A stretch of DNA of 64,000 nucleotides. It comes from Dokdonella sp. Lineage in GTDB: Bacteria > Pseudomonadota > Gammaproteobacteria > Xanthomonadales > Rhodanobacteraceae. The DNA lies in contig NZ_DASSYD010000207.1 in the NCBI RefSeq assembly GCF_035703485.1, positions 8,126 through 72,125 of the forward strand, given 5' to 3'. Below the pieces are notes generated by a model that saw only the letters and a list, made by a program, of their open reading frames with translations, was not told where the DNA came from and did no database searches. This document shows positions 30,972 to 62,355 of this stretch, one piece after another. How positions within the stretch are numbered: position 1 is the first letter of the stretch; every line of letters begins with the position of its first letter. A program made the position numbers and the translations under genes.

Positions 30972-32078
30972 TCAGAAATACGGGATCGGTGGCGGCATTC
31001 CGTCGACCGATACGCCCCGGCGACCGAGTTCGGCGCGCGCCTGGCCTGCCGAGTCTCCGCCGGCAAGCATTTCAGCACGCAGTGCGAGCAGATCGAATCC
31101 GACCTCTCGCGCCCGTGTCGCAACGCGGGCAAGTGCAGACTCCTTGCCGGAGTTGCGCACCGAGGCTCGCAACAGATCGACACGCAGGGTCAGCAAGGCA
31201 TCGGGATTGCTGCCAAGCTCGCTCTCCAACTCGTCGAGCAGACGCTCGGCCTGCTCGATGTGGCTCTGGGCCGACAACACACCGGCCAGAAGCACACCCG
31301 CCTGCAATCCGGCGTGCGGATCGTTCGCCTTGAGCATGGCCCGGCGCAGCTCGCGAGCGGATTGTTCGGCGGCGCCGAGATGGCCCCGGCGCGCCGCCAG
31401 TTCGGCCAGATCAAGCTCGCTCATGCGCGCCCATTCGTCGAGACCGGCCTGCTCGCGCAATTGTTTCGCCAGTCGAAATCCGGTATCTGCAGACTCGTTC
31501 GCGCCGCGCAATGCCGCTTCACGGGCGCGCGCCGTCTCGATAGCGGCACGCCGCGAGGCCGGCACTTGTTCATTGAGCTCGGAAAGCAGGCTCCCCGCGC
31601 CGTCCAGATCGGCGCGAAGCAGCAACAATTCACCAAGACTGGCGACGACCTGCAGCCGATTGTCCTCGGCACCAATGGCAGCCCGGACTCGATTTCCTGT
31701 GCAGGCATCGCATCGACAATGCCAGCTGTCGATGCGGTTTCATCCAACACCTGCGGCTGGACGAGAAAACGGTAGCCGAGCTTGTGCTTGGTTTCGATAT
31801 AGGGCAACGCTGATCAAGTGGCCCTAGGTCGAATTGCGTGCGGAATCGCCGAGCGCCTGGCGCAGCTCGCGGATCGATTGAGAAACCACACCTACACTGA
31901 CCGCCTGACGTCCCCAGACATTGTCGAGCAGTTCCTCGTGTCCGATCAGGCGCTGCGGATTTTCAAGCAAATGGCGAAGCACCTGCACCGTGATCGGGCG
32001 CAGCGCAATTTCGCCCTCCGCGCCACTGAGGCGCGCGTTGTGCGCATCGAAACTGAATTGATCGAATTGGTAATGCAT
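30972..32078 (-). pseudogene. Disrupted winged-helix (OmpR/CadC-type) + TPR-like transcriptional regulator
   Basis: Three minus-strand frames each carry part of one protein. 32078-31824 gives MHYQFDQFSFDAHNARLSGAEGEIALRPITVQVLRHLLENP...IRELRQALGDSARNST*. 31807 onward gives PYIETKHKLGYRFLVQPQV (the rest of the wHTH wing). A third frame gives AAIGAEDNRLQVVASLGELLLLRADLDGAGSLL... down to 30972. One junction coincides with a MITE-end footprint. Confidence 0.6.
31801..31823 (+). repeat. Solo MITE terminal-repeat footprint inside the regulator pseudogene
   Basis: agggcaacgctgatcaagtggcc compared with the element end aaggcaacgctgatcaagtggcg (21/23 identical). Confidence 0.65.
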
Positions 32079-32192: not shown

Positions 32193-32858
32193 ATGTTGAC
32201 CCTTCCTGACCAGCCACTACTCGACAAGATCGCCCTGATTGGCGGTTGTGCGCGACTTGATTTCGGTTTCGATGCCGAGCGTGCGCTTTCCGAGATCACG
32301 GCACTGCCGGATTCCAGTTGGGGCAGTCGTGCCGGTCGAGTCGGCGTTCACGACCCGGCCCAGGCGATCTTTCTGCGTGGTCATGCGCCGGCCCAGGGTG
32401 ATCTACCTGTCGAGGATCGCGACGAACTTGCGCAGCTTCCATATCTGCGTGAGTTGATCAAAGAGGTAATTCCCGCGCCAGCGCTTCGTTGCGTGCTGGC
32501 CCAGTTGTCGGCGGGCGGAATCATCGCACCGCATATTGATCAGGGTGAGTATTTCAGCAAGACCATCCGCCTGCACTTTCCGATCACCACCAACGAAAAT
32601 GTCTGGATGAACTGTGCCGGGCTTAGCTACCAGATGCATTCTGGTGAGATCTGGGCACTCAATAACAGCATTGGTCACGGCGTGATCAATGCTGATGCGA
32701 GCCGCGCGCGCTTGCACATGATCTGTGATTTTCTGAGCAGCGCGGAGCTGGTGGAGATACTTGCGCGCGCTGATCGAGGCCTTGGCAGGCCCAATCCTGC
32801 GATCAAGGCCCGCCTGATCGAAGCACAGCACCAGGCCCAGCAAGCTGGCAAGCTGTGA
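32193..32858 (+). CDS. Aspartyl/asparaginyl beta-hydroxylase-family 2OG/Fe(II) oxygenase (LpxO/ASPH-type cupin), 221 aa
   Basis: Start trimmed to MLTLPDQPLLDKI, because the upstream part of the track ORF overlaps the wHTH on the other strand. HxD in IIAPHIDQGEY, distal His in NSIGHGVIN, and the cupin core IRLHFPITTNENVWMNCAG...GEIWALNN. Confidence 0.75.
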   Translation: MLTLPDQPLLDKIALIGGCARLDFGFDAERALSEITALPDSSWGSRAGRVGVHDPAQAIFLRGHAPAQGDLPVEDRDELAQLPYLRELIKEVIPAPALRCVLAQLSAGGIIAPHIDQGEYFSKTIRLHFPITTNENVWMNCAGLSYQMHSGEIWALNNSIGHGVINADASRARLHMICDFLSSAELVEILARADRGLGRPNPAIKARLIEAQHQAQQAGKL

Positions 32859-33550
32859 TCATCACCGACAAACTCGTCTATGTGCACCTGCACAAGTCGG
32901 GCGGCACGTTTGTCAACGAATGCCTGATGCGCTTCATTCCTGGCGCAAGAATGCTCGGATATCACCTGCCGAGCAGCATGATTCCGGACAATCTCGGTCA
33001 CCTTCCGCTGCTCGGTTTCGTGCGCAGCCCCTGGAGTTACTACGTGTCCTGGTATGCGTTCCAGTCACAGATGACATACCCGAATGTACTGTTTCGCGTT
33101 GTCAGCAAAGACCGGGCACTGGATTTCCATGGGACGCTGCGCAATCTGCTTGACCTTGGCAGCGACAACGACATGCTCGACAAACTCGTTGCGTTGCTGC
33201 CAAAGACTTACGGCAACCAGGGCTTGAATCTGCCCGGCTTCGCGCTGGAACCGATTCGTGGCAGTGGCAAAGGTCTGTACAGCTATCTCTACGGCTACAT
33301 GTACGGCGAAAGGGAAGCTGAGGCACTCGTGGGTCGCGTGGAAAATCTGCGCACCGACCTGCTTGGCTTTCTTGCCAGCATCGAGGGTGCGTTGTCACCG
33401 CCACTGCGCACATTCATCGAGCAGGCGGAAGCACGAAACACCTCGCGCCATGATGCGTTTCGCGATTACTACAACAAGGAAATGGCCGCGCTCGTTACCG
33501 AACGCGACCAGTCGGTCGTCGAAAAATTCGACTATCGTTTCGAAGACTGA
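32855..33550 (+). CDS. Sulfotransferase family protein (Sulfotransfer_2-like), 231 aa
   Basis: 5'-PSB-like loop VHLHKSGGTFV and 3'-PB-like FVRSPWSYYVSWY. GTG start overlaps the hydroxylase stop (GTGA). Confidence 0.7.
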   Translation: MIITDKLVYVHLHKSGGTFVNECLMRFIPGARMLGYHLPSSMIPDNLGHLPLLGFVRSPWSYYVSWYAFQSQMTYPNVLFRVVSKDRALDFHGTLRNLLDLGSDNDMLDKLVALLPKTYGNQGLNLPGFALEPIRGSGKGLYSYLYGYMYGEREAEALVGRVENLRTDLLGFLASIEGALSPPLRTFIEQAEARNTSRHDAFRDYYNKEMAALVTERDQSVVEKFDYRFED

Positions 33551-33858: not shown

Positions 33859-34452
33859 CTATTTTTTGGCCTTTGCTTTTGGACGCTTTTCCGGCTTCGC
33901 CGGCTCACCTTTTCGACCAAGCTCTTCAAGCAGGCTGCTCATGTCTTCGGCATGCTCTTCCTCGACTTCGAGAATCTCCTCCATGAGCCGCCGAGTGGTT
34001 GTATCGGCGCTGCCCAGATAGTCGACGATTTCCCGATAGCTGTCGATGGCGATGCGCTCGGCGACGAGATTTTCCTTGATCATGTCGACCAGATCGTCAC
34101 CTTCGACGTAATCGGAGTGGCTGCGTGTGAGCAAGCCTTCTGGCGAAAGGTTTGGCGCGCCACCCAGCTGGGTAATCCGCTCGGCAATGCGATCAGCGTG
34201 GCTCTGCTCCTCGTTGGCGTGCGCGAGAAACTCGGCAGCGACGCTTTGCGCGTTGATGCCCGATGCCATGTAGTAGTGATACTTGTACCGAAGAACACAA
34301 ACGATCTCGGTCGCGAGTGCCTCATTGAGAACCCGAATGACCGTTTCGCGATCGGCGTCGTAGCCAGCGGTGACGGCGCCACGCTCGATATGTTCGCGGG
34401 CCCGCTTGCGGATATTCTTGATGTCGGAGACGAAGGGTTTGCGTATGGCCAT
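33859..34452 (-). CDS. Ferritin-like (bacterioferritin/Dps-like) protein with a lysine-rich C-terminal tail
   Basis: Start trimmed to MAIRKPFVSD (AAGGAG RBS). Di-iron-type motifs are LNEALATEIVCVLRYKYHY, HANEEQSHADRIAERI, ERIAIDSYRE and EEILEVEEEHAEDM. The tail is GRKGEPAKPEKRPKAKAKK. Confidence 0.8.
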   Translation of the reverse strand: MAIRKPFVSDIKNIRKRAREHIERGAVTAGYDADRETVIRVLNEALATEIVCVLRYKYHYYMASGINAQSVAAEFLAHANEEQSHADRIAERITQLGGAPNLSPEGLLTRSHSDYVEGDDLVDMIKENLVAERIAIDSYREIVDYLGSADTTTRRLMEEILEVEEEHAEDMSSLLEELGRKGEPAKPEKRPKAKAKK

Positions 34453-34582
34453 GGGGACTGCTCCTTGAATCGCTGCGGATGGATCGCCGATCCGGGCGGA
34501 AATCATTCCGTTGCGGTTCTCGGCGGGAAGTCACCAGTCCATTGTGCTGAAACCCATGCATCCCCGGCTGAATGAGATTTCC

Positions 34583-36475
34583 TCAGCCGCTGAACACCAA
34601 CTCCGCACGCGCTCTGGTCGCCTCGATCAATGGCAGTACGGCCTCGATTTCTCGCTCGTGACGACGCCACTTCTCCGGTGCGGGTGCCGAAACCGTATGC
34701 TGCGAATGTGGAAGGTTGGCTCCGAGTTCTACATCCCAGCCGAGCCCCAGCTCACTGCACAAACGCCTGCATTCAGATTGTGGGTCGGCCAGGAAGCGGT
34801 CGTAGCGAACGGTGTGAATCCGCTCACTGGGCACGTTGGCCAACTCATCGAGCAACGTTCGGGTTGTTGTCTCCCATTGCCGCGCGACGATCTCGGGCAG
34901 CGGCCGGCCGATCAGCTCCCGCCAACCCGGCACCAGCAACAATGACCATGGCGTGCCGGTCCAGCCCGGAAGTCTCGGATAGGTGCGATATTTCCCCGAG
35001 TTCCAGGCCTCGATCATGCTGGAAAGCACTTCGCGTGGATCGCGATACAGATAGACGAAATGCGCCTCCGGAAAAACTTTGCGCAAAAATGGAATGCGCA
35101 ATGCATTCCTCGGGGTCTTTTCGAGCAGACGAATGCGTCCCGCTGGTGGACGTTTACCCTCTCGATCGTGCAACGCTGTATCGAAACGCCCACGTAGTCG
35201 AGCGACCACGTCCTGCGTTGCGGCAGCTGCGTCAAGTGCGTTCGAGGCGAATCCACGAGCCACAGGATGCAACTCGTTCATACCTTCGATTTGAACATGG
35301 CTTTCGCCACCGACGGTGTAGAGATCCGGTGCACGTAGCAGGGTTTCAAAAAGCAGAGTCGAGCCGGAACGAGGCGATGAAAGGATGATGACCGGTCGAT
35401 CAAAGCGCGAGTCAACATCAGAACCTGATTCGGAGGATTCGATGCGCGGGCCATTCGACGAAGGCGGAGACTTTGCCTGATCCGGTGCAGTCGCGAAAGC
35501 ATCGGGCCCTTTGTCGGCATTGGCCCCCAATTCGCGATTCACACGACCGATCAAGGCCCCTTCGAAGATCATCGCGCGGAACGCCGCGAAGAAGCGAAAG
35601 CTGTTCTTGAGCAGCAATCCATCGCTCAATCCATGCATTTCTATCGCGAATTCCTTGAGTACTGCATGGTACTCAGGCCAACCCTCTTCGCGGATGCCGT
35701 AACGCGCCCACAAGCCGAGCCAGACGCCATTGAATTGTGCACAGCGCGACTGCATCACAGCCATGTTTGGAGTGTGAGTCGCTTCGGAGAGCAGAAAGTT
35801 GAGAGTATCGCGAAGCTCCCACGGCGTAATTACGTCGCCTAGATTCTCCGACTCGTAGATTATTTCGACCTCTTTTTCTGGATCAAATGAAACCTGCTTC
35901 GGAGACCATCCTGGAGCAGCGTGTCCTTCTACGCGCCCCTGGTTGGTGTGCTCCCAGAAACGCTGGCTGCCAACCGTATCGGCAACCAGATGAATGCGTT
36001 GGGCAGGGTTCGCATTGATGACCCGATGCGCACGCCAGGTATCGAAGATCCAGCACTCGCCCTCGGCCATATTGACCTCGGCGTCGCCGCACTGGAAGCG
36101 TACCGTTGGCTGGGTCTGGATCGGCACATGCACGCGTACCCGTTCACGCCAGTAGTAGGCGAAGTCCGCATGTCGGGGAACCTCGGCGTGGCCCGACAGT
36201 CGCATCAGCCGACTGCGCCCCCATACAGCGCCAAGGCTGGCCAGCACCTGGCGCAAGTAAGGACAGGCATCCAGATGTGGCGTTGGCCGCATTGGCCCGG
36301 AAATCGAATCACTGGATGGATCGCCATTCACCGCGATCAAGGGCAAAGCCGAGTTGCCGGCATAACCCTGCGGATGCGGCCGCCATACGCTTTCACCGAG
36401 CTTCTCGATCTCGGCAAGCAATCGCGGCGCATCAAAACTCAGGGGCAATTGGACGAACGGAACTTGAAGTTTCAT
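34583..36475 (-). CDS. Fusion protein: N-terminal Asp/Asn beta-hydroxylase-family cupin + central unknown region + C-terminal sulfotransferase (Sulfotransfer_3-like), 630 aa
   Basis: N-terminus: ...LSGHAEVPRHADFAYYWRERVRVHVPIQTQPTVRFQCGDAEVNMAEGECWIFDTWRAHRVIN (HxD...H cupin). C-terminus: VIILSSPRSGSTLLFETL (5'-PSB), YLYRDPREVLSSMIEAW (3'-PB). Start trimmed to MKLQVPFVQLP. Confidence 0.75.
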   Translation of the reverse strand: MKLQVPFVQLPLSFDAPRLLAEIEKLGESVWRPHPQGYAGNSALPLIAVNGDPSSDSISGPMRPTPHLDACPYLRQVLASLGAVWGRSRLMRLSGHAEVPRHADFAYYWRERVRVHVPIQTQPTVRFQCGDAEVNMAEGECWIFDTWRAHRVINANPAQRIHLVADTVGSQRFWEHTNQGRVEGHAAPGWSPKQVSFDPEKEVEIIYESENLGDVITPWELRDTLNFLLSEATHTPNMAVMQSRCAQFNGVWLGLWARYGIREEGWPEYHAVLKEFAIEMHGLSDGLLLKNSFRFFAAFRAMIFEGALIGRVNRELGANADKGPDAFATAPDQAKSPPSSNGPRIESSESGSDVDSRFDRPVIILSSPRSGSTLLFETLLRAPDLYTVGGESHVQIEGMNELHPVARGFASNALDAAAATQDVVARLRGRFDTALHDREGKRPPAGRIRLLEKTPRNALRIPFLRKVFPEAHFVYLYRDPREVLSSMIEAWNSGKYRTYPRLPGWTGTPWSLLLVPGWRELIGRPLPEIVARQWETTTRTLLDELANVPSERIHTVRYDRFLADPQSECRRLCSELGLGWDVELGANLPHSQHTVSAPAPEKWRRHEREIEAVLPLIEATRARAELVFSG

Positions 36476-36973
36476 GGGTCCATTATCGCACTTTAGGCAA
36501 GGCGGAACCAGAAACGTCGGGTCTGTTTCCACGCTCCCTAAGTACATCTTCTCGACTGTTCGCTGATTTGGCTCCTGTTGCGCTGAAACGTTGCAGGGCA
36601 GTAGCCAATTTGCGCCCGCGCCGCTCTTCCGATTGCCGGGTGGCTACTGGTTCCGCGAACAAGTTCGCCTAGACACTGAAGCCGGCAATGACATCCTTGC
36701 CGCAGCAATAGCCAAGATTGAGCCATCGAGCACCGCAACTCAAAAGAAGACTCGAACTCTGAGCCGCTGTGACTTTTTGTGTACCAACTCAAGCGACAAG
36801 TACATCAAGTTATTGGATGCGACGCCGAACCTCCACCTCATCTCTAAGCATAAACAGCAATCGTATATGTTTTTCAATACTACTAATAGTTGTGATTTCG
36901 ATCACATTTTTTATTCTAATACCCATACGATGCAAGTCAACATATTCGACAATATCTGTCTTGAAGGTTTGTC

Positions 36974-37900
36974 ATGATCATGAAACGTACTTCAGCATTT
37001 CTATTGATACTGATAGCACCCCTAGTTTTACTCGCAATTTTCAGCTTGAATTACATGCGTGGAAGCGATGTTGTTCCTGCAAAAATGCCAAACAATGTAC
37101 TTTTTAGTTCGGCAACTTCACGCGAGTTACTTACTCCCATAAACCCAAGGGCTAGCCATCACTTGAGGATGCCGACAGCCCAACGCTCGAACCATCAAAT
37201 CGTGGATGGCCTTCTGCAGCAATTCGAGAGTGGAGATGGCGAGGCGCTAGATGCCAAGCTCGTCGCAGCGCATTTTGCTGACATTCTTCGAAGGCTGAAG
37301 GACGGAGATCCCATTGCCGCACGCCTACTGCATCAAAGCTTGGCAACGTGTAAGGGATCTTACTCTCCCAAGGAACTCAACGATTTGCGCATTTCCGCGA
37401 GCTCGCGGAATGACGAAATAGCCTTGCGCTCCATTGCGGCGATCTCGGCCGCATGCTCACCATTCTCTGGCGAGCAGATCGCCGCGGATTGGGAAATTGT
37501 GAAAGCCGGCATTGATCTAGGGGACGATTCTCTTAAAGTTCAATATTATACGTTGGACCCTGGCGTTCCAAGCTTTGACTCGCGATACTCAAGGAGACTG
37601 GCCGAGTACAACGATGAAGCACTTGCCCACTTGAATCAGGCCGCGAGTGATGGGTTTCCAGACGCCTATTGGGCATTGGGCGACGCGTATATGGAAGGAA
37701 AGATTGTTCCGCGAGACTTCCTGCGCGCGTATGGGTATCAACTCGCGTGGCTCGAAAGCCAGAGAGCCACATTCCTTCCTTCCGAGTGGGAAGCATTCCA
37801 TTCGGCATTGGTAAGGGACTTCGGGACACGTCTGACGGCTGAGCAGCAGTTAGACGCACAGTTTCTGGCTAATCGTTTACTTTCTGGAGATAACTCATGA
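36974..37900 (+). CDS. Membrane-anchored hypothetical protein with at least one Sel1-like repeat
   Basis: N-terminal anchor MIMKRTSAFLLILIAPLVLLAIFSL. AASDGFPDAYWALGDAYMEGKIVPRDFLRAYGY resembles a Sel1/TPR-like repeat. The coding region is AT-rich relative to its neighbours. Confidence 0.45.
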   Translation: MIMKRTSAFLLILIAPLVLLAIFSLNYMRGSDVVPAKMPNNVLFSSATSRELLTPINPRASHHLRMPTAQRSNHQIVDGLLQQFESGDGEALDAKLVAAHFADILRRLKDGDPIAARLLHQSLATCKGSYSPKELNDLRISASSRNDEIALRSIAAISAACSPFSGEQIAADWEIVKAGIDLGDDSLKVQYYTLDPGVPSFDSRYSRRLAEYNDEALAHLNQAASDGFPDAYWALGDAYMEGKIVPRDFLRAYGYQLAWLESQRATFLPSEWEAFHSALVRDFGTRLTAEQQLDAQFLANRLLSGDNS

Positions 37901-38217
37901 ACTTTCGCCTCATCGCCGTTACATTGTTCGGAATAGCCGTTTCAGGCGTGTGTAGCGCATCAAGCTTCGGCACCCAGTGTCAGTCTTGCACACCGTTCAA
38001 CTATTCGAGCGCTTCAGTTCAGCAAGCAGCAGTACTACTGGCGAGCAGCAATAGTGCCGCCATTGGAGACACCCTGCAATTATGTAAAGATATTAACAAT
38101 GGGCGGTCACTCCTACTTTCGTATACTGTAAATTCCTCCCCCGTCACGAGTATCGCGAATCTTACTCACGGACCTCTTGGACAAATCATTCTCGATGTTT
38201 CCTGTGACGGCAACTAA
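37897..38217 (+). CDS. Small secreted hypothetical protein (106 aa, 5 Cys)
   Basis: Signal peptide MNFRLIAVTLFGIAVSGVCSA. The mature part is Ser/Cys-rich (SSFGTQCQSCTPFNYSS...LCKD...VSCDGN). ATGA overlap with the upstream gene suggests translational coupling. I recognise no family. Confidence 0.4.
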   Translation: MNFRLIAVTLFGIAVSGVCSASSFGTQCQSCTPFNYSSASVQQAAVLLASSNSAAIGDTLQLCKDINNGRSLLLSYTVNSSPVTSIANLTHGPLGQIILDVSCDGN

Positions 38218-38253
38218 ACTAGTATCGATCTTCGTCTTCTTCTAGCCTTGGTT

Positions 38254-38280
38254 AGCGGAATCCGCCAAGCGGATTCCGCT
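38254..38280. terminator. Perfect 12-bp stem-loop between convergent genes (no U-tract)
   Basis: agcggaatccgc-caa-gcggattccgct. Confidence 0.45.
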
Positions 38281-38356
38281 CTATCGTAGCGGCCCTCAAA
38301 TCTCGAATCAGACTCTGAGGTTTCACCACGAATTTCCGCTGGTAGACCGCGATTGT

Positions 38357-40574
<2,218 letters not shown>

Positions 40575-40678
40575 CCCGCATTGAATCATGTTCATTGCAG
40601 CCAAGCCAGCCAGACGCCACCTGGTTCAAGGCGAGGGTGCTCAGATGGCACAATGGTGGCTTGTCTCAAGGAACTGCC

Positions 40679-57981: not shown

Positions 57982-58061
57982 GTTTCGCCGCCCATTGCTG
58001 TGGCTGATAGAATCCGCAACGAGCTTTTCCCTACCTCGACCCTTCATCCAGGCCAGAAGAC

Positions 58062-58457
58062 ATGAAAGAAATACCCGGTGATCTGTTGTTCCTCAAATCC
58101 CACGAGTGGGTCCGTGTTGAAGATGACGGCACGGCTACTGTCGGCATTTCCGACCATGCGCAGGGCTTGCTCGGTGATCTGGTCTATGTCGAACTTCCAG
58201 ACGTTGGCGATAGCGCGAAGCCGGGAACGGCGGCGGCGGTTGTCGAATCCGTCAAGGCAGCTTCGGACGTATATTCTCCGGTCAGTGGTGAGATCGTCGC
58301 AGTCAACGAAGCCCTCGCCGATACTCCGGAAACGATCAACGAAGATGCCTATGGCGAGGGTTGGATTTTCGTCGTCAAACTCGATAGTCGCGACGAGCTC
58401 GATGACATGCTCGGACCCGACGCATATGCCGAGCTGATTGAAAACGAGGAAGGCTGA
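58062..58457 (+). CDS. gcvH: Glycine cleavage system protein H
   Basis: [24 protein letters not shown]...[16 protein letters not shown] (lipoyl-Lys motif). Confidence 0.95.
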
Positions 58458-58491
58458 GTCGAATTCACACCAGTCGTCTTGAGTACATGGA

Positions 58492-58524
58492 AGCGGGCCA
58501 GGGAAATCTGGCTCGCTTTTTTTT
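58492..58524 (+). terminator. Rho-independent terminator after gcvH
   Basis: agcgggcca-gggaaatc-tggctcgct followed by T8. Confidence 0.7.
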
Positions 58525-58856
58525 GCTCTCAATGCGCGTTCAAGCAAAATAATTCTCGCCTTCATTTGGCTGCGGTTTAGCTTGTCGCGGCATCACTTTT
58601 CGTCGTTGAAGCAGGGACTTGAATGATGACAATTCAATCGATCGGCGAAGCAATGAATGAGAGCAGATTGCAGGTTTTAACCCGCCATAGGGCGATATAT
58701 CTAGCTATCCGGGTTTTGTCCTGAATTATGTCGGGACGTATAAACGTCTATATGGCTCATACAAAACAGTTGGACTCATTGCACGTTACTGAAAGTTCAG
58801 CGCGGCACTGGCACTGGCGATGGAAACTCCAGAGCCTTGTTTTTTGTCAGAAATCT

Positions 58857-58884
58857 GTTGACACTCGCATCCGACAAGCATAAT
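58857..58884 (+). promoter_or_regulatory. Sigma70-like promoter for the MetJ-like gene
   Basis: TTGACA-16 nt-CATAAT, about 40 bp upstream of the ATG at 58923. Confidence 0.45.
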
Positions 58885-58922
58885 TTTCGCGTCAGCAACA
58901 CTACGGAATCCAAAATAGAATC

Positions 58923-59552
58923 ATGGCTGCATCCAGATTCGTCGAACCCTATATCGAGCACGGCCTGAAATCATCGGCCACAAGAAAAATCACGGTATCG
59001 ATTCCACTGCACATCCTTCGACTTCTGTCCGATGAACGGACCCGGCGCCAGGTAGCGAACCTGCGCCACGCGACAAACAGCAACCTGCTGTGCGAAGCAT
59101 TTCTTCACGCTTTTACTGGGCAACCACTGCCAACTGACGAGGAGTTAAGACGCGATATGGCCACAAAGAAAGCAACAGCGAAAAAGAAACCAGCTGCGAA
59201 GAAACCTGCCGCCAAAAAAGCGGCAAAGAAAGTAGCTGCCAAGAAGGCTCCAGCAAAGAAGAAGACAGCCAAGGCCAAAGTGGCCAAAGCTGTAAAGAAA
59301 GCTCCAGCAAAGAAGGTCGCAGCCAAGAAGGCGCCGGCGAAAAAGGCTCCAGCAAAGAAAGCTGCGAAAAAGACGGTGAAGAAGGTCGCAGCGAAGAAAG
59401 CTCCGGCCAAAAAAGTCGCAAAGAAGGCTGCGAAGAAGAAAACAGCCAGGGCCAAAACAGCGACAGCCATGAAAAAGGCGCCGGCCAAGAAGGCGGCCGC
59501 AAAGAAGGCTCCAGCAAAGAAAGCTGCCAAAAAGGCCGCCAAGAAGAAATAG
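58923..59552 (+). CDS. metJ: MetJ-type ribbon-helix-helix repressor core fused to a histone H1-like Lys/Ala-rich tail (209 aa)
   Basis: Residues 1-78 ([68 protein letters not shown]) match E. coli MetJ as I recall it ([57 protein letters not shown]). Residues 79-209 are (A/P)AKK(A/V) repeats. Confidence 0.8.
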
Positions 59553-59562
59553 TGTTCCTTGA

Positions 59563-59588
59563 GGTTGGTTGTCGGCTGGCAACCAACC
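59563..59588 (+). terminator. Stem-loop after the MetJ-like gene (no U-tract)
   Basis: ggttggttg-tcggctgg-caaccaacc. Confidence 0.4.
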
Positions 59589-59785
59589 CTTGACTGGACG
59601 CCGCGCATCGCATCGTTGGTGCCAGGCAGTACAGAGTCACTGCACACCAAGTGCAGGTAAATAAGCTTCATGATCCAGCAATCGAACTCCTCTCCCTGCG
59701 GTATGCCCAGCGCAGGGAGAGATTTCGAAAAGCGGATTCAGCTTTTTGAAGTGCTCGAAACTTTCGGCCAGCTGCCCGCGAATAG

Positions 59786-60112
59786 CTACAACCGGGTTTC
59801 AGGCTCCGCCGCATGCAGCTCATCGGGCCTGGTTCGCGACTGAAGAATCCTCGCCACCAGCATTGATCCCGCTGATGATCGAATCAGCGACCATCCGAAG
59901 CTTGCTGTCGAGTGTACCGACCGGGTCACATCGCGCAGTCGACCGCGGCCCATCAGCAGGCCGGCAACGAACCCGCCTCCCACCAGCAAAGTCGGCCGCC
60001 AGCGCTCGAATCTGTCGCTCAGGTCTTCCGTTTTCAGTTTCAGCTTTTGTCGTCGCGCGATCAGATTGACCGAAGCGCTCCGCACCCGTTGGCGATCATC
60101 CTTGAGACTCAT
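59786..60112 (-). CDS. YqjK-like small membrane protein
   Basis: Start trimmed to MSLKDDRQRVRSASVNLIARRQKLKLK...TLLVGGGFVAGLLMG. ATGA overlap with the upstream gene. It is third in a yqjD-yqjE-yqjK-like order. Confidence 0.5.
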   Translation of the reverse strand: MSLKDDRQRVRSASVNLIARRQKLKLKTEDLSDRFERWRPTLLVGGGFVAGLLMGRGRLRDVTRSVHSTASFGWSLIRSSAGSMLVARILQSRTRPDELHAAEPETRL

Positions 60113-60868: not shown

Positions 60869-61329
60869 GGGAATTCCTCTTTGCGTTCAATGCAGACTTT
60901 GCTGACATGACCCAGCGTCGCGCCAGATATCTGCTGCAACCATGCTTGCACGGGCTCCCTGAAGCCCGCATTGATGGAGGCATCCGGCATGGCAGCGACA
61001 GCTCCCGAATATGGCGTGGCGTGTGCGCAATTTCCGCAGGTGTGACACCTTGCACGGTAATGCGCTATCTTTCTTGCGTCCGTAGGTCAAGTGATGTTGA
61101 GGACAGGGGCGCAGATTTCAAGCGATGCAACACGAATCGCTTGTCTGACGCGGATGCTTCAGAACAGGTACTGCGATGCGCGGACCTGGAAGTGAGCCGG
61201 GCTTTTCAGCCGACTCATTGTCGAGTCGCGCGCCGCGGAACTGTTCAGATATTCCGCTTGAGCTCTTGTTGGGCACGCCACTTGCATGCGTGATTGTCTT
61301 GTCTTGCATTTCCGGAGCGTCTGGCCACC

Positions 61330-62355
61330 ATGAAATCGTCCTCTTCTCACTCACGTTCCGTGCGCGGCTCAGCCGCACTCACGATCATAATCATTCTCAT
61401 CTTGCTGGCTGCAGCGGCCGCAGGCGCCTGGTGGTACCTCACCCAACGTGGAGCCGCCGTGCCAACAGCGGGACCCGCCGCAACGACAGCTCCGATATCG
61501 GGCTCCGCAACCGCCGAAGATGCTGAAGCAAAGGCGGCCGCCGCCGCAGCCGCGGCCGCCGCGGTCGAAGGCCTGAGTATTGACCAGCTCTATCGCGAAG
61601 CGCGCAAGGCCATGGCCGATCAACGCCTGGTGGCTCCTGCCGGCAACAATGCACTGGAGTTCTATCTCGCCATCCTCGAAAAGGATGAGAACAATACTGG
61701 AGCAGCCGATGCACTGCGCGAACTGTTTCCGTTCGCCAGCGGCACCGCAGAACAGGAAATCAACCAGGGCAACCTGGAAGAAGCTGATCGCATCATCGAG
61801 TCGCTGGCGAAGGCCGATCCGAGCAACTACACCTTGACCATCTTGCGCAGCAAGCTCGACGCCAAGAGCAAGCAGCTTGAACAACAAGCCGCAGAAGCTG
61901 CGGCAGCCGCGGCTGCACCACCGCCGACGCCAACGCCGCCAACAAGTGTTGTCGACGAAGCCACTCAACCCGCTTCGGACACAGCCGCAGCGGTCGATGC
62001 CACACCACAACCCGCACCGCCACCTGCACCTGCCGTGGCCGCTCCGGCACCCCAGCCGGTCGCGGCCGCACCAAGAGGCGAAAGCCGTGACGTCGATGTG
62101 GTGACCCCTTCACCGCCCAGCTACCCGCGTGCGGCCGCAAGAGATCGCCAGGAAGGCTGGGTCGAAGTCGAATTCACGGTTACTGCGGACGGCAAGGTTG
62201 TCGATGCAAAGGTAACCGCATCCGATCCCCAACGCGTCTTCGATCGCGAGGCGATCCGCTCCATCGAACGTACCCAGTTCAGTCCGCGAATGGAAAACGG
62301 AGTCGCAGTCAACGCAACGGTCCGTCGCCGCATCGAGTTCAAGCTGGGACGCTGA
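61330..62355 (+). CDS. TonB-family protein (N-terminal anchor, Ala/Pro-rich spacer, TPR-like region, C-terminal TonB domain)
   Basis: Anchor ALTIIIILILLAAAAAGAWWYL, a Pro/Ala spacer, and the C-terminus PPSYPRAAARDRQEGWVEVEFTVTADGKVVDAKV...FDREAIRSIERTQFSP. Confidence 0.75.
   Translation: MKSSSSHSRSVRGSAALTIIIILILLAAAAAGAWWYLTQRGAAVPTAGPAATTAPISGSATAEDAEAKAAAAAAAAAAVEGLSIDQLYREARKAMADQRLVAPAGNNALEFYLAILEKDENNTGAADALRELFPFASGTAEQEINQGNLEEADRIIESLAKADPSNYTLTILRSKLDAKSKQLEQQAAEAAAAAAAPPPTPTPPTSVVDEATQPASDTAAAVDATPQPAPPPAPAVAAPAPQPVAAAPRGESRDVDVVTPSPPSYPRAAARDRQEGWVEVEFTVTADGKVVDAKVTASDPQRVFDREAIRSIERTQFSPRMENGVAVNATVRRRIEFKLGR

What the first reader, a model, noticed from the sequence alone, without database searches (positions are those of the whole stretch)
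34583..36475. Rosetta-stone fusion of an Asp/Asn-beta-hydroxylase-type cupin with a PAPS-type sulfotransferase
In a single 630-aa ORF, residues about 1-190 carry the cupin with PRHADF...WRAHRVIN iron ligands. Residues about 200-370 are an unassigned helical region followed by a Ser/Pro-rich linker (…APDQAKSPPSSNGPRIESSESGSDVDS…). Residues about 385-630 carry the sulfotransferase 5'-PSB (PRSGSTLL) and 3'-PB (RDPREVLSS) motifs. Fusing an oxygenase to a sulfotransferase is strong genomic-context evidence for consecutive steps on one molecule. The unassigned middle region is a candidate substrate-recognition module.
Basis: partly seen in the sequence, partly recalled or inferred. Interest (0 to 1): 0.75.

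Follow-up and report, generated by a model that had tools for sequence, protein, structure and literature searches.

The report
Widespread fused hydroxylase–sulfotransferase enzyme, function unproven
The gene is real and encodes one protein that joins an iron/2-oxoglutarate hydroxylase to a PAPS-type sulfotransferase. The same fusion occurs in hundreds of proteobacterial species and was anticipated in a 2010 computational paper, so it is an uncharacterised but not new kind of enzyme whose substrate is still unknown.

Summary
One uninterrupted minus-strand ORF (34583-36475, 630 aa) carries a PF05118 cupin (HxD...H triad and Arg160 intact). It is followed by a helical domain, a 44-residue disordered linker and a PF13469 sulfotransferase with both PAPS-binding motifs. 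It is not a sequencing artefact. All 120 best homologues have the same two domains, 114 of the 150 best 50%-identity cluster representatives do, and at least 594 species genomes encode a relative (Lysobacterales, Steroidobacteraceae, Caulobacterales, a Diaphorobacter plasmid). Split forms also exist, and a second, unfused cupin plus sulfotransferase-fold pair lies 1 kb away. The Rosetta-stone logic therefore holds. The "unassigned" middle region is the C-terminal helical domain of this hydroxylase subfamily, as in proline 3- and cis-4-hydroxylases. Hydroxylate-then-sulfate was already predicted for linked or fused bacterial beta-hydroxylases and sulfotransferases by Iyer et al. (2010). The substrate is unknown and the genomic contexts differ by lineage:
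- a TPP-riboswitch thiC operon plus a ferritin-like gene in Lysobacterales;
- TonB-dependent receptor, TPR-sulfotransferase and TPR-hydroxylase clusters elsewhere;
- triple fusions with DUF4915 next to beta-helix surface proteins.
Verdict: a new member of a catalogued, uncharacterised family, of moderate interest.

The parts
34583..36475 (-). Complete fusion gene (630 aa plus stop): hydroxylase, helical domain, linker, sulfotransferase
   Evidence: ORF list; Pfam; start fixed by alignment A1; translation check
35906..36475 (-). Residues 1-190: double-stranded beta-helix (cupin) Fe(II)/2-oxoglutarate oxygenase core. H102-x-D104 lies at 36164-36172, H150 at 36026-36028 and the putative 2OG-binding R160 at 35996-35998
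   Evidence: PF05118. H102, D104, H150 and R160 are invariant in 33 sequences. They align to the HxD/H of 4p7w and 1e5r. Fold matches to 4p7x, 1e5r, Cpz10 7v4f and AspH
35546..35905 (-). Residues 191-310: helical domain belonging to the hydroxylase half (helices 218-231, 238-259, 263-283, 295-307)
   Evidence: AF2 pLDDT 82-95. The P3H sequence alignment runs to residue 232. Foldseek aligns about 290 columns to the 286-residue cis-P4H. The region is present in stand-alone cupin proteins of 322-338 aa
35414..35545 (-). Residues 311-354: disordered Ser/Pro/Ala-rich linker, variable in length and sequence among homologues
   Evidence: pLDDT below 50 for 311-354; gapped, unconserved alignment columns
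34586..35413 (-). Residues 355-630: PAPS-type sulfotransferase domain. 5'-PSB PRSGSTLL lies at 35351-35374, E391-S-H393 at 35297-35305, EKTPRN at 35105-35122 and 3'-PB RDPREVLSS at 35018-35044
   Evidence: PF13469 E 2.2e-28. Motifs invariant. Sequence and fold matches to CurM ST 4gbm, OLS ST 4gox and TPST1/2
33859..34506 (-). Ferritin/Dps-like gene directly downstream on the same strand (76-nt gap). A likely co-transcribed, recurrent partner
   Evidence: PF00210 E 2.7e-28. It lies downstream of the fusion in 24 of 81 related loci, within 6-130 bp in 19 of them, with or without thiC
32193..32858 (+). Unfused paralogous PF05118 cupin (221 aa), 29% identical to fusion residues 9-175
   Evidence: Pfam E 2.8e-12; BLASTP E 2e-17. 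Adjacent to the fusion in L001, L005, L006, L008, L010, L013, L019, L040 and L043
32855..33550 (+). 231-aa protein overlapping the cupin gene by 4 bp. No Pfam or NCBIfam family. Probable sulfotransferase-fold protein (invariant HKSGG P-loop and R57-x-P...S65)
   Evidence: No family hit. 1310 homologues, all 'hypothetical'. AF2 pLDDT 91.5. All 49 best PDB fold matches are sulfotransferases, but weakly (E at best 0.016, TM at most 0.55). The C-terminal 72 aa are 32% identical to a PF03567 protein in the equivalent Asticcacaulis operon. hhalign against the fusion's ST domain is negative

Best explanation
The gene encodes a cytoplasmic bifunctional enzyme. The N-terminal half (cupin plus helical domain) is an Fe(II)/2-oxoglutarate oxygenase that installs a hydroxyl group on an unactivated carbon of an amino-acid-derived substrate. 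A free or acylated amino acid or small peptide is more likely than a folded protein. The C-terminal half, tethered by a flexible 44-residue linker, uses PAPS to convert a hydroxyl of the same molecule, most simply the new one, into a sulfate ester. In this organism the enzyme works beside a second, unfused hydroxylase plus sulfotransferase-fold pair and a ferritin-like protein, so the pathway product may carry more than one hydroxyl or sulfate group. SHOWN: the fusion is real and conserved; both domain folds are present; the metal, 2OG and PAPS motifs are intact; split and fused forms coexist; linkage to further sulfotransferases and hydroxylases recurs. INFERRED: enzymatic activity, the order of steps, that both act on the same atom, and the substrate class.
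For: Domain assignment and scores. Invariant H102/D104/H150/R160 and PRSGST, E391/H393, EKTPKN, R478 and S486 in 33 homologues at 52-82% identity. The closest solved hydroxylases act on free amino acids or small aminoacyl molecules: P3H 1e5r E 1.3e-5, cis-P4H 4p7w E 3.2e-5; Foldseek 4p7x E 1.9e-9; Cpz10 7v4f TM 0.73 (Cpz10 function from PMC9814697). There is no TPR or other peptide-binding domain. Fused and split forms occur in the same family: 114 of 150 representatives carry cupin+ST, alongside stand-alone versions. A tight Asticcacaulis operon encodes TonB receptor, PF03567 ST, small PF05118 cupin, TPR-ST and the fusion. PAPS-synthesis genes cysD/cysNC lie beside one relative. Iyer et al. 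2010 published a prior independent prediction that such linked enzymes hydroxylate and then sulfate.
Against: No substrate or product is known, and no experimental paper was found. The AF2 inter-domain geometry is undefined (pTM 0.52, disordered linker), so there is no evidence for a shared cleft. The nearest solved sulfotransferases include tyrosylprotein sulfotransferases, which need no prior hydroxylation. Genomic context differs between lineages, so one common substrate is not assured. No PAPS-synthesis gene, transporter or scaffold-synthesis gene lies next to the gene in the window.
Confidence: 0.45

Rival explanations
1. Post-translational modification of an exported protein. The enzyme hydroxylates and sulfates side chains of a secreted or outer-membrane protein before export. 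Candidates are beta-helix surface proteins with IPTL-CTERM-like tails, or TonB-dependent receptors.
For: Relatives fused or adjacent to DUF4915 sit next to mutually homologous signal-peptide beta-helix proteins with IPTL-CTERM-type tails in L085, L088, L090 and L092 (34-44% identity). Such proteins also occur in L040 (flanked by two fusion paralogues and a small cupin) and L079. TonB receptor, TPR-sulfotransferase and TPR-hydroxylase neighbours occur in Steroidobacteraceae, Caulobacterales and Rhodanobacter soli. Iyer et al. 2010 proposed surface proteins as substrates of linked beta-hydroxylase and sulfotransferase genes.
Against: The window has no such protein. The fusion has no TPR or peptide-docking domain and no signal peptide. 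Its closest solved hydroxylase relatives act on small molecules. Adjacency was seen in only about 6 of about 90 loci.
Confidence: 0.2
2. Sulfation as activation, not decoration. The sulfate is a leaving group, as with CurM/OLS sulfotransferases, and is expelled in a later elimination or cyclisation. In relatives the fused TIGR03032/DUF4915 beta-propeller would do this step, so the final product would be unsulfated.
For: The best solved sequence match of the ST half is the activating CurM ST (4gbm E 3e-7; identical SSPRSGSTLL and aligned E-x-H). About 20 of 150 cluster representatives carry a C-terminal DUF4915, 3 are ST+DUF4915 only, and in Diaphorobacter the TIGR03032 gene overlaps the fusion by 4 bp.
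Against: Neither the window nor any of the 84 related loci searched encodes DUF4915. No thioesterase or PKS context is present. Similarity to CurM is remote (19% identity), and TPST and heparan-sulfate STs match almost as well. The chemistry of DUF4915 is unknown, with only weak beta-propeller matches.
Confidence: 0.12
3. Same pathway, different positions. The two domains modify one scaffold independently, for example the ST sulfates a pre-existing hydroxyl, phenol or sugar while the oxygenase acts elsewhere. The fusion then reflects co-expression rather than consecutive chemistry.
For: A long disordered linker of variable length separates the halves. Clusters contain several extra sulfotransferases and hydroxylases, up to four TPR-STs in L049. 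Variants exist with two ST domains (P0135) or an extra cupin-like segment between the two halves (L062, L084).
Against: The simplest reading of a 1:1 fusion conserved in hundreds of species, plus repeated 1:1 small cupin and ST pairs (window; Asticcacaulis), is a coupled two-step reaction.
Confidence: 0.18
4. Artefact: two adjacent genes joined by a sequencing or assembly error in the linker.
For: None beyond the low-complexity linker.
Against: The ORF is continuous. All 120 best homologues from NCBI, JGI, ENA and Logan assemblies are 607-655 aa with both domains. Relatives occur in at least 594 species genomes.
Confidence: 0.01

Closest known systems
Linked or fused bacterial beta-hydroxylase and sulfotransferase systems predicted by Iyer, Abhiman, de Souza & Aravind 2010 (NAR 38:5261, PMC2938197)
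   Same: The same two enzyme superfamilies, described as fused or functionally linked in bacteria. The same inferred logic: the dioxygenase makes a hydroxyl that is then sulfated. TonB-receptor-linked dioxygenase clusters are also noted there.
   Different: That work is purely computational. It describes neighbourhoods with PhyH-methyltransferase fusions, collagen-like and tail-collar proteins, none of which is present here. In the text I read it does not describe this PF05118-helical-PF13469 protein, the thiC/TPP or ferritin linkage, DUF4915 fusions, or the 231-aa family.
Free-amino-acid hydroxylases of the PF05118 fold: proline 3-hydroxylase (1e5r) and L-proline cis-4-hydroxylase (4p7w/4p7x)
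   Same: These are the best solved sequence and fold matches for residues about 59-310. The HxD...H triad and following Arg align, and they share the cupin plus C-terminal helical domain layout.
   Different: Identity is only 14-17%. Substrate-binding residues were not tested. Those enzymes are stand-alone, with no sulfotransferase.
Cpz10 (7v4f), beta-hydroxylase of an aminoacyl-glycyluridine in caprazamycin biosynthesis
   Same: Best TM-score for the cupin core (0.73, 22-23% identity). It is an AspH-like enzyme acting on a small molecule.
   Different: It is 167 aa, lacks the helical domain, and sits in a nucleoside-antibiotic cluster context absent here.
CurM and OLS activating sulfotransferase domains (4gbm, 4gox) and tyrosylprotein sulfotransferases (TPST1/2)
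   Same: The same Sulfotransfer_3-type fold and PAPS motifs. The SSPRSGSTLL motif is identical to CurM, and the E-x-H and (D/E)K(S/T)P motifs align.
   Different: There is no ACP, thioesterase or PKS context (CurM). There is no evidence for tyrosine substrates (TPST). Identity is about 16-22%.
Human AspH and bacterial LpxO/OlsC (PF05118 namesakes)
   Same: The same Pfam family and DSBH fold.
   Different: AspH uses a TPR domain and binds EGF-domain substrates. LpxO/OlsC act on lipid acyl chains. NCBIfam LpxO/OlsC models match the neighbouring TPR-hydroxylases of other lineages (E 1e-33) but not this protein.

Membership tests
PF05118 Asp_Arg_Hydrox (Fe(II)/2OG DSBH oxygenases) | Profile score above the curated cut-off | tested here: met
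   52.0 bits against cut-off 22.6, E 9.5e-14
PF05118 Asp_Arg_Hydrox (Fe(II)/2OG DSBH oxygenases) | HxD/E...H iron-binding triad and a basic residue for the 2OG C5 carboxylate | tested here: met
   H102, D104, H150 and R160 are invariant in 33 sequences and align to the HxD/H/R of 4p7w and 1e5r
PF05118 Asp_Arg_Hydrox (Fe(II)/2OG DSBH oxygenases) | Double-stranded beta-helix fold | tested here: met
   AF2 model with pLDDT mostly above 85 in residues 1-190. Foldseek matches to 4p7x, 1e5r, 7v4f and AspH 5apa
PF05118 Asp_Arg_Hydrox (Fe(II)/2OG DSBH oxygenases) | 2OG-dependent hydroxylase activity | not testable with these tools
   Needs an enzyme assay
AspH proper (protein Asp/Asn beta-hydroxylase of EGF domains) | TPR substrate-binding domain preceding the oxygenase | tested here: not met
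   No TPR hit in the fusion. TPR+PF05118 proteins are separate genes in other lineages
Free-proline hydroxylase subfamily (P3H, cis-P4H) | Cupin core plus C-terminal helical domain | tested here: met
   Sequence alignment to 1e5r covers residues 59-232. The Foldseek alignment spans about the full 286-residue 4p7x. Helices 218-307 are confidently modelled
Free-proline hydroxylase subfamily (P3H, cis-P4H) | Proline-binding pocket residues and proline hydroxylation | not tested
   Identity is only 14-17%. Pocket residues were not compared for lack of coordinates and open literature
PF13469 Sulfotransfer_3 (PAPS-dependent sulfotransferases) | Profile score above the curated cut-off | tested here: met
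   100.4 bits against cut-off 27, E 2.2e-28
PF13469 Sulfotransfer_3 (PAPS-dependent sulfotransferases) | 5'-phosphosulfate-binding P-loop and 3'-phosphate-binding RxxxxxxxS motif | tested here: met
   PRSGST 368-373 and R478...S486 are invariant or nearly so, are identical to or aligned with CurM ST, and were verified by translation
PF13469 Sulfotransfer_3 (PAPS-dependent sulfotransferases) | Candidate catalytic base | tested here: inconclusive
   Invariant E391 and H393 align with the 'PELH' of CurM ST. That these are the CurM catalytic residues rests on my memory of McCarthy et al. 2012 and was not checked here (one search found no open text)
CurM-type activating sulfotransferase | Embedded in a PKS module with ACP-bound beta-hydroxyacyl substrate and a following thioesterase | tested here: not met
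   There is no PKS, ACP or TE domain in the protein or its neighbours
Sulfotransferase fold (for the neighbouring 231-aa protein) | Sulfotransferase fold and PAPS motifs | tested here: inconclusive
   All 49 best fold matches are sulfotransferases, but with E at best 0.016 and TM at most 0.55. The invariant HKSGG and R57-x-P...S65 fit the motifs. There is no Pfam or NCBIfam hit, only sub-threshold Sulfotransfer_1 hits in 2 of 4 members. hhalign to the fusion's ST domain is negative

The most novel reading that the evidence does not exclude
In much of the Lysobacterales the hydroxylase-sulfotransferase is the second gene of the TPP-riboswitch-controlled thiC operon. In 24 of 81 loci it starts within -4 to +63 bp of the thiC stop, and 8 of these show a 4-bp overlap. 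A ferritin-like gene often follows. The most novel reading not excluded is that the enzyme has a thiamine-linked role. It might make or salvage a hydroxylated, sulfated pyrimidine or thiazole-related metabolite, or support the iron-dependent radical-SAM enzyme ThiC. That would be an unknown branch of thiamine metabolism, with the window's copy a descendant uncoupled by an insertion.
Probability: 0.08. Interest if true: 0.85.

Novelty: new member of a known kind. Interest (0 to 1): 0.42.

Why it matters
I found no report of a biochemically characterised bifunctional hydroxylase-sulfotransferase, and sulfate esters are rare in bacterial metabolites and proteins. This family is large (hundreds of species, several architectures) and completely uncharacterised, so identifying its substrate would open a new class of sulfated bacterial products or protein modifications. 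The window adds little novelty of its own, because the fusion is common and its logic was predicted in 2010. The work does yield testable leads. These are isolates carrying the gene (Dokdonella immobilis, Rudaea cellulosilytica, Rhodanobacter spp., Diaphorobacter sp. HDW4B, Asticcacaulis sp. DW145), a likely thiamine-responsive operon, candidate protein substrates (beta-helix IPTL-CTERM proteins), a recurrent third domain (DUF4915/TIGR03032), and an unannotated probable sulfotransferase family of over 1300 proteins.

Tried and rejected
- **Sequencing-error fusion:** rejected.
- **Middle region as an independent substrate-recognition module:** rejected in favour of the hydroxylase's own helical domain.
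- **Iron (Fur) regulation**, suggested by the ferritin neighbour and PiuC-like/TonB-receptor contexts: no Fur-box-like site near the fusion, ferritin or cupin genes. The only good match in the window is at about 61380 beside a TonB gene.
- **Promoter and terminator scan of 31.5-38.4 kb:** counts at or below shuffle expectation, so uninformative.
- **Riboswitches in TonB-receptor-type clusters:** none found.
- **DUF4915, TPR-sulfotransferase, TPR-hydroxylase or beta-helix surface protein genes in the window:** none found.
- **Profile-profile comparison of the 231-aa family with the fusion's ST domain:** negative.
- **Sequence search of DUF4915 against the PDB:** only weak beta-propeller matches.
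- **Literature searches** for the Pfam names, DUF4915, TIGR03032 and combinations of sulfotransferase, hydroxylase and TonB: no experimental work, only Iyer et al. 2010.
- **CurM catalytic residues and the cis-P4H pocket:** I could not confirm either from open text.
- **Whether the two active sites face each other:** not assessable, because AF2 gives pTM 0.52 with a disordered linker and no PAE output.
- **Conserved neighbours across all lineages:** none found. ThiC and ferritin adjacency is confined to Lysobacterales and may partly reflect inherited synteny.
Full report
**1. The observation**

The window holds a minus-strand ORF at 34583..36547 (654 aa from the first ATG). Thirty-two homologues all begin MKLxVPF, so the true start is the ATG at 36475.

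Pfam assigns PF05118 Asp_Arg_Hydrox (52 bits, cut-off 22.6) and PF13469 Sulfotransfer_3 (100 bits, cut-off 27). I checked every quoted motif by translation:
- H102-A-D104 at 36164-36172
- H150 at 36026-36028
- PRSGSTLL at 35351-35374
- RDPREVLSS at 35018-35044
- the Ser/Pro-rich linker at 35414-35545

The frame is unbroken.

**2. Is the fusion real?**

Yes.
- All 120 best hits in a 5.8-billion-protein collection are 607-655 aa and carry both Pfam domains. They come from independent NCBI, JGI, ENA and Logan assemblies of Dokdonella, Rhodanobacter, Rudaea, Dyella and Steroidobacteraceae.
- In a library clustered at 50% identity, 606 representatives match at E<=1e-30. Of the best 150, 114 contain both the cupin and the sulfotransferase.
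These lie in Lysobacterales (Rhodanobacteraceae, Pseudoxanthomonas, Arenimonas), Steroidobacteraceae, Caulobacterales and Hyphomonadaceae.
- Plasmids of a betaproteobacterium (Diaphorobacter) and of Asticcacaulis also carry it.

The closest relatives (71-78% identity) are Dokdonella-like, so the window comes from a Dokdonella-related member of the Rhodanobacteraceae.

**3. Anatomy**

An AlphaFold2 model built on 33 homologues (mean pLDDT 83.8) shows four parts:
- a beta-rich cupin core, residues 1-190
- a confident helical domain with helices between 218 and 307
- a disordered stretch, residues 311-354
- an alpha/beta sulfotransferase domain, residues about 358-630

The alignment shows invariant H102, D104, H150 and R160 in the oxygenase. 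In the transferase, P368-R-S-G-S-T373, E391, H393, E452-K-T-P455, R478 and S486 are invariant or nearly so. The linker varies in length and sequence.

Against solved structures, the N-terminal half matches proline 3-hydroxylase (1e5r, E 1.3e-5, query residues 59-232) and L-proline cis-4-hydroxylase (4p7w, E 3.2e-5), with the HxD, H and R aligned. By fold, cis-P4H (4p7x, E 1.9e-9) aligns over about its full 286 residues. The small-molecule beta-hydroxylase Cpz10 (7v4f) gives the best core TM-score (0.73), and human AspH matches more weakly. The identity of Cpz10 comes from PMC9814697.

The "unassigned helical region" is therefore the C-terminal helical domain that belongs to this hydroxylase subfamily. 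Stand-alone proteins of 322-338 aa consisting of cupin plus helical domain exist in the same family.

The C-terminal half matches the CurM and olefin-synthase sulfotransferase domains (4gbm E 3e-7, with an identical SSPRSGSTLL) and tyrosylprotein sulfotransferases. Stand-alone sulfotransferases of 284-296 aa from the same family also exist. This is a genuine Rosetta-stone situation.

**4. The immediate neighbourhood in the window**

- *Ferritin/Dps-like gene.* It lies 76 nt downstream on the same strand (33859-34506; PF00210).
- *Second hydroxylase/sulfotransferase module, not fused.* It lies beyond the ferritin gene on the other strand. It comprises a 221-aa PF05118 cupin (32193-32858) that is 29% identical to the fusion's N-terminus. 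Overlapping it by 4 bp is a 231-aa protein (32855-33550) that matches no Pfam or NCBIfam model.
- *The 231-aa family.* It has at least 1310 members, all annotated "hypothetical" and many on the same contigs as fusion homologues. Its model is confident (pLDDT 91.5), and all 49 best fold matches are sulfotransferases, though weakly (best E 0.016, TM at most 0.55). An invariant HKSGG loop and R57-x-P...S65 fit the two PAPS-binding motifs. Its C-terminal 72 residues are 32% identical to a bona fide PF03567 protein occupying the equivalent position in an Asticcacaulis operon. A profile-profile comparison with the fusion's own ST domain is negative. I call it a probable, not proven, sulfotransferase.
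- *Recurrence of the pair.* It lies beside the fusion in at least nine related loci.
- *Regulator remnant.* The adjacent OmpR-type/TPR regulator is 875 aa and intact in D. immobilis, L005 and L008. In the window only residues 1-84 and 641-875 survive, so it is an internally deleted remnant.

**5. Context in other lineages**

No neighbour is conserved everywhere.

(a) *Lysobacterales.* The fusion follows thiC on the same strand in 32 of 81 loci. In 24 of them the gap is -4 to +63 bp, and 8 of these show a 4-bp overlap. A TPP riboswitch precedes thiC in L003, L005, L039, L046 and L075. In those species the enzyme is very probably part of the thiamine-repressed thiC transcript. The ferritin-like gene follows the fusion in 24 loci, 10 of which have no thiC nearby. 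In the window this adjacency is broken by a 1.8-kb lower-GC insertion.

(b) *Steroidobacteraceae, Caulobacterales and Rhodanobacter soli.* The neighbours are TPR+Sulfotransfer_3 proteins (up to four copies), TPR+PF05118 hydroxylases (OlsC/LpxO-like by NCBIfam), TonB-dependent receptors, PF13640 oxygenases and an aspartyl protease. Asticcacaulis has a tight operon: TonB receptor, PF03567 sulfotransferase, small cupin, TPR-sulfotransferase and the fusion.

(c) *DUF4915 variants.* About 20 of the 150 representatives add a C-terminal DUF4915/TIGR03032 domain, which gives weak beta-propeller matches. Three are sulfotransferase+DUF4915 only. In Diaphorobacter the TIGR03032 gene overlaps the fusion by 4 bp. 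Four of the five such loci examined lie next to mutually homologous signal-peptide beta-helix proteins ending in IPTL-CTERM-type sorting tails. One of them also lies next to cysD/cysNC, the PAPS-synthesis genes. A homologous beta-helix gene sits between two fusion paralogues in L040.

None of these partner genes is present in the window. The rest of the window is ordinary chromosome.

**6. Mechanism**

The best-supported account is a bifunctional enzyme. An Fe(II)/2OG oxygenase makes a hydroxyl on an amino-acid-derived substrate, and the tethered PAPS-dependent transferase then sulfates that molecule.
- Shown: the architecture, the folds, the intact cofactor motifs, the coexistence of fused and split forms, and repeated 1:1 pairing of small cupins with sulfotransferases.
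- Inferred: activity, the order of the steps, that the new hydroxyl is the acceptor, and the substrate class.

I favour a small molecule for two reasons. The closest solved hydroxylases act on free amino acids or aminoacyl-nucleosides, and the protein lacks any TPR or docking domain. The beta-helix surface-protein and TonB-receptor contexts keep a protein-modification reading alive (0.2). The CurM similarity and the DUF4915 fusions keep a sulfate-as-leaving-group reading alive (0.12). Independent action of the two domains on one scaffold is also possible (0.18).

Inter-domain geometry could not be judged (pTM 0.52).

**7. Comparison with what is known**

The protein meets the tested defining features of PF05118 and PF13469. 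It is not an AspH proper (no TPR) and not a CurM-type module (no PKS or thioesterase).

The idea that bacterial beta-hydroxylases and sulfotransferases are linked or fused, and that the dioxygenase-made hydroxyl is then sulfated, was published by Iyer et al. 2010 (PMC2938197).

I found no experimental study of this family. Databases name its members only "sulfotransferase", "aspartyl/asparaginyl beta-hydroxylase" or "LPS sulfotransferase NodH".

**8. Verdict**

However, the fusion is common, already catalogued, and its logic already predicted. It is a new member of a known, uncharacterised kind.

Interest is moderate (0.42). It rests on three things: the total lack of biochemical data for a large family, the unexplained thiC/TPP-riboswitch operon membership, and the by-product identification of an unannotated probable sulfotransferase family.

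Noticed in passing
window 32193-33550 (+): This is a second, unfused hydroxylase/sulfotransferase-like module. A 221-aa PF05118 cupin overlaps by 4 bp a 231-aa protein that has no Pfam or NCBIfam family. That protein has at least 1310 'hypothetical' homologues, and its predicted fold matches only sulfotransferases. It is probably an unannotated sulfotransferase family.
   Followed up: yes
window 33859-34506 (-): A ferritin/Dps-like gene lies 76 nt downstream of the fusion. The same pairing recurs in 24 of 81 related loci, 10 of them without thiC nearby. Its role (iron supply, protection or pathway enzyme) is unexplained.
   Followed up: partly
L003, L039, L046, L075 and 20 further loci; window 38357-40438 (thiC): In many Lysobacterales the fusion gene starts -4 to +63 bp after thiC, downstream of a TPP riboswitch, which implies thiamine-controlled co-transcription. 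In the window and in Dokdonella other genes have been inserted between the two.
   Followed up: partly
window 40495-40576 (-): Upstream of thiC there is only a weak TPP-riboswitch match (32.9 bits, gathering score 54.3, E 1.4e-4). Relatives score 63-71 bits. This may be a divergent or decaying aptamer.
   Followed up: partly
window 30978-32078 (-): This is a remnant of an OmpR-type winged-helix plus TPR regulator. Only residues 1-84 and 641-875 of the 875-aa Dokdonella orthologue remain, in different frames. It is an internally deleted pseudogene divergent from the small cupin gene.
   Followed up: yes
window about 36600-38300: A lower-GC stretch (0.53 against about 0.60) carries a Sel1-like protein with an N-terminal hydrophobic segment (36974-37900 +) and a 106-aa cysteine-containing protein with a signal-peptide-like N-terminus (37897-38217 +). 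Both are absent from all related loci. It is probably an insertion that split thiC from the fusion gene.
   Followed up: partly
L085, L088, L090, L092, L040, L079: Relatives of the fusion, often with DUF4915/TIGR03032 fused or adjacent, lie next to homologous signal-peptide beta-helix proteins. These proteins share an 'ATFTVT..DSGAGSLR' N-terminus and IPTL-CTERM-like tails. In L088 the neighbours also include cysD/cysNC.
   Followed up: partly
L062 (10001-12833), L084 (524-3351), L032/L049/L068/L069, P0135: Architectural variants exist. Some loci have an extra cupin-like segment between the two halves. In others the tblastn match starts about 670-890 bp upstream of the fusion ORF, where a TPR-sulfotransferase gene directly precedes it. 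One protein has two sulfotransferase domains.
   Followed up: no
window about 61380-61404: The only good Fur-box-like site in the window (5 mismatches to the 19-mer consensus) lies at the start of a TonB-family gene (61294-62355).
   Followed up: no
window 58001-60000: A second lower-GC interval (0.532) with strong AT skew (0.18). I did not examine it.
   Followed up: no
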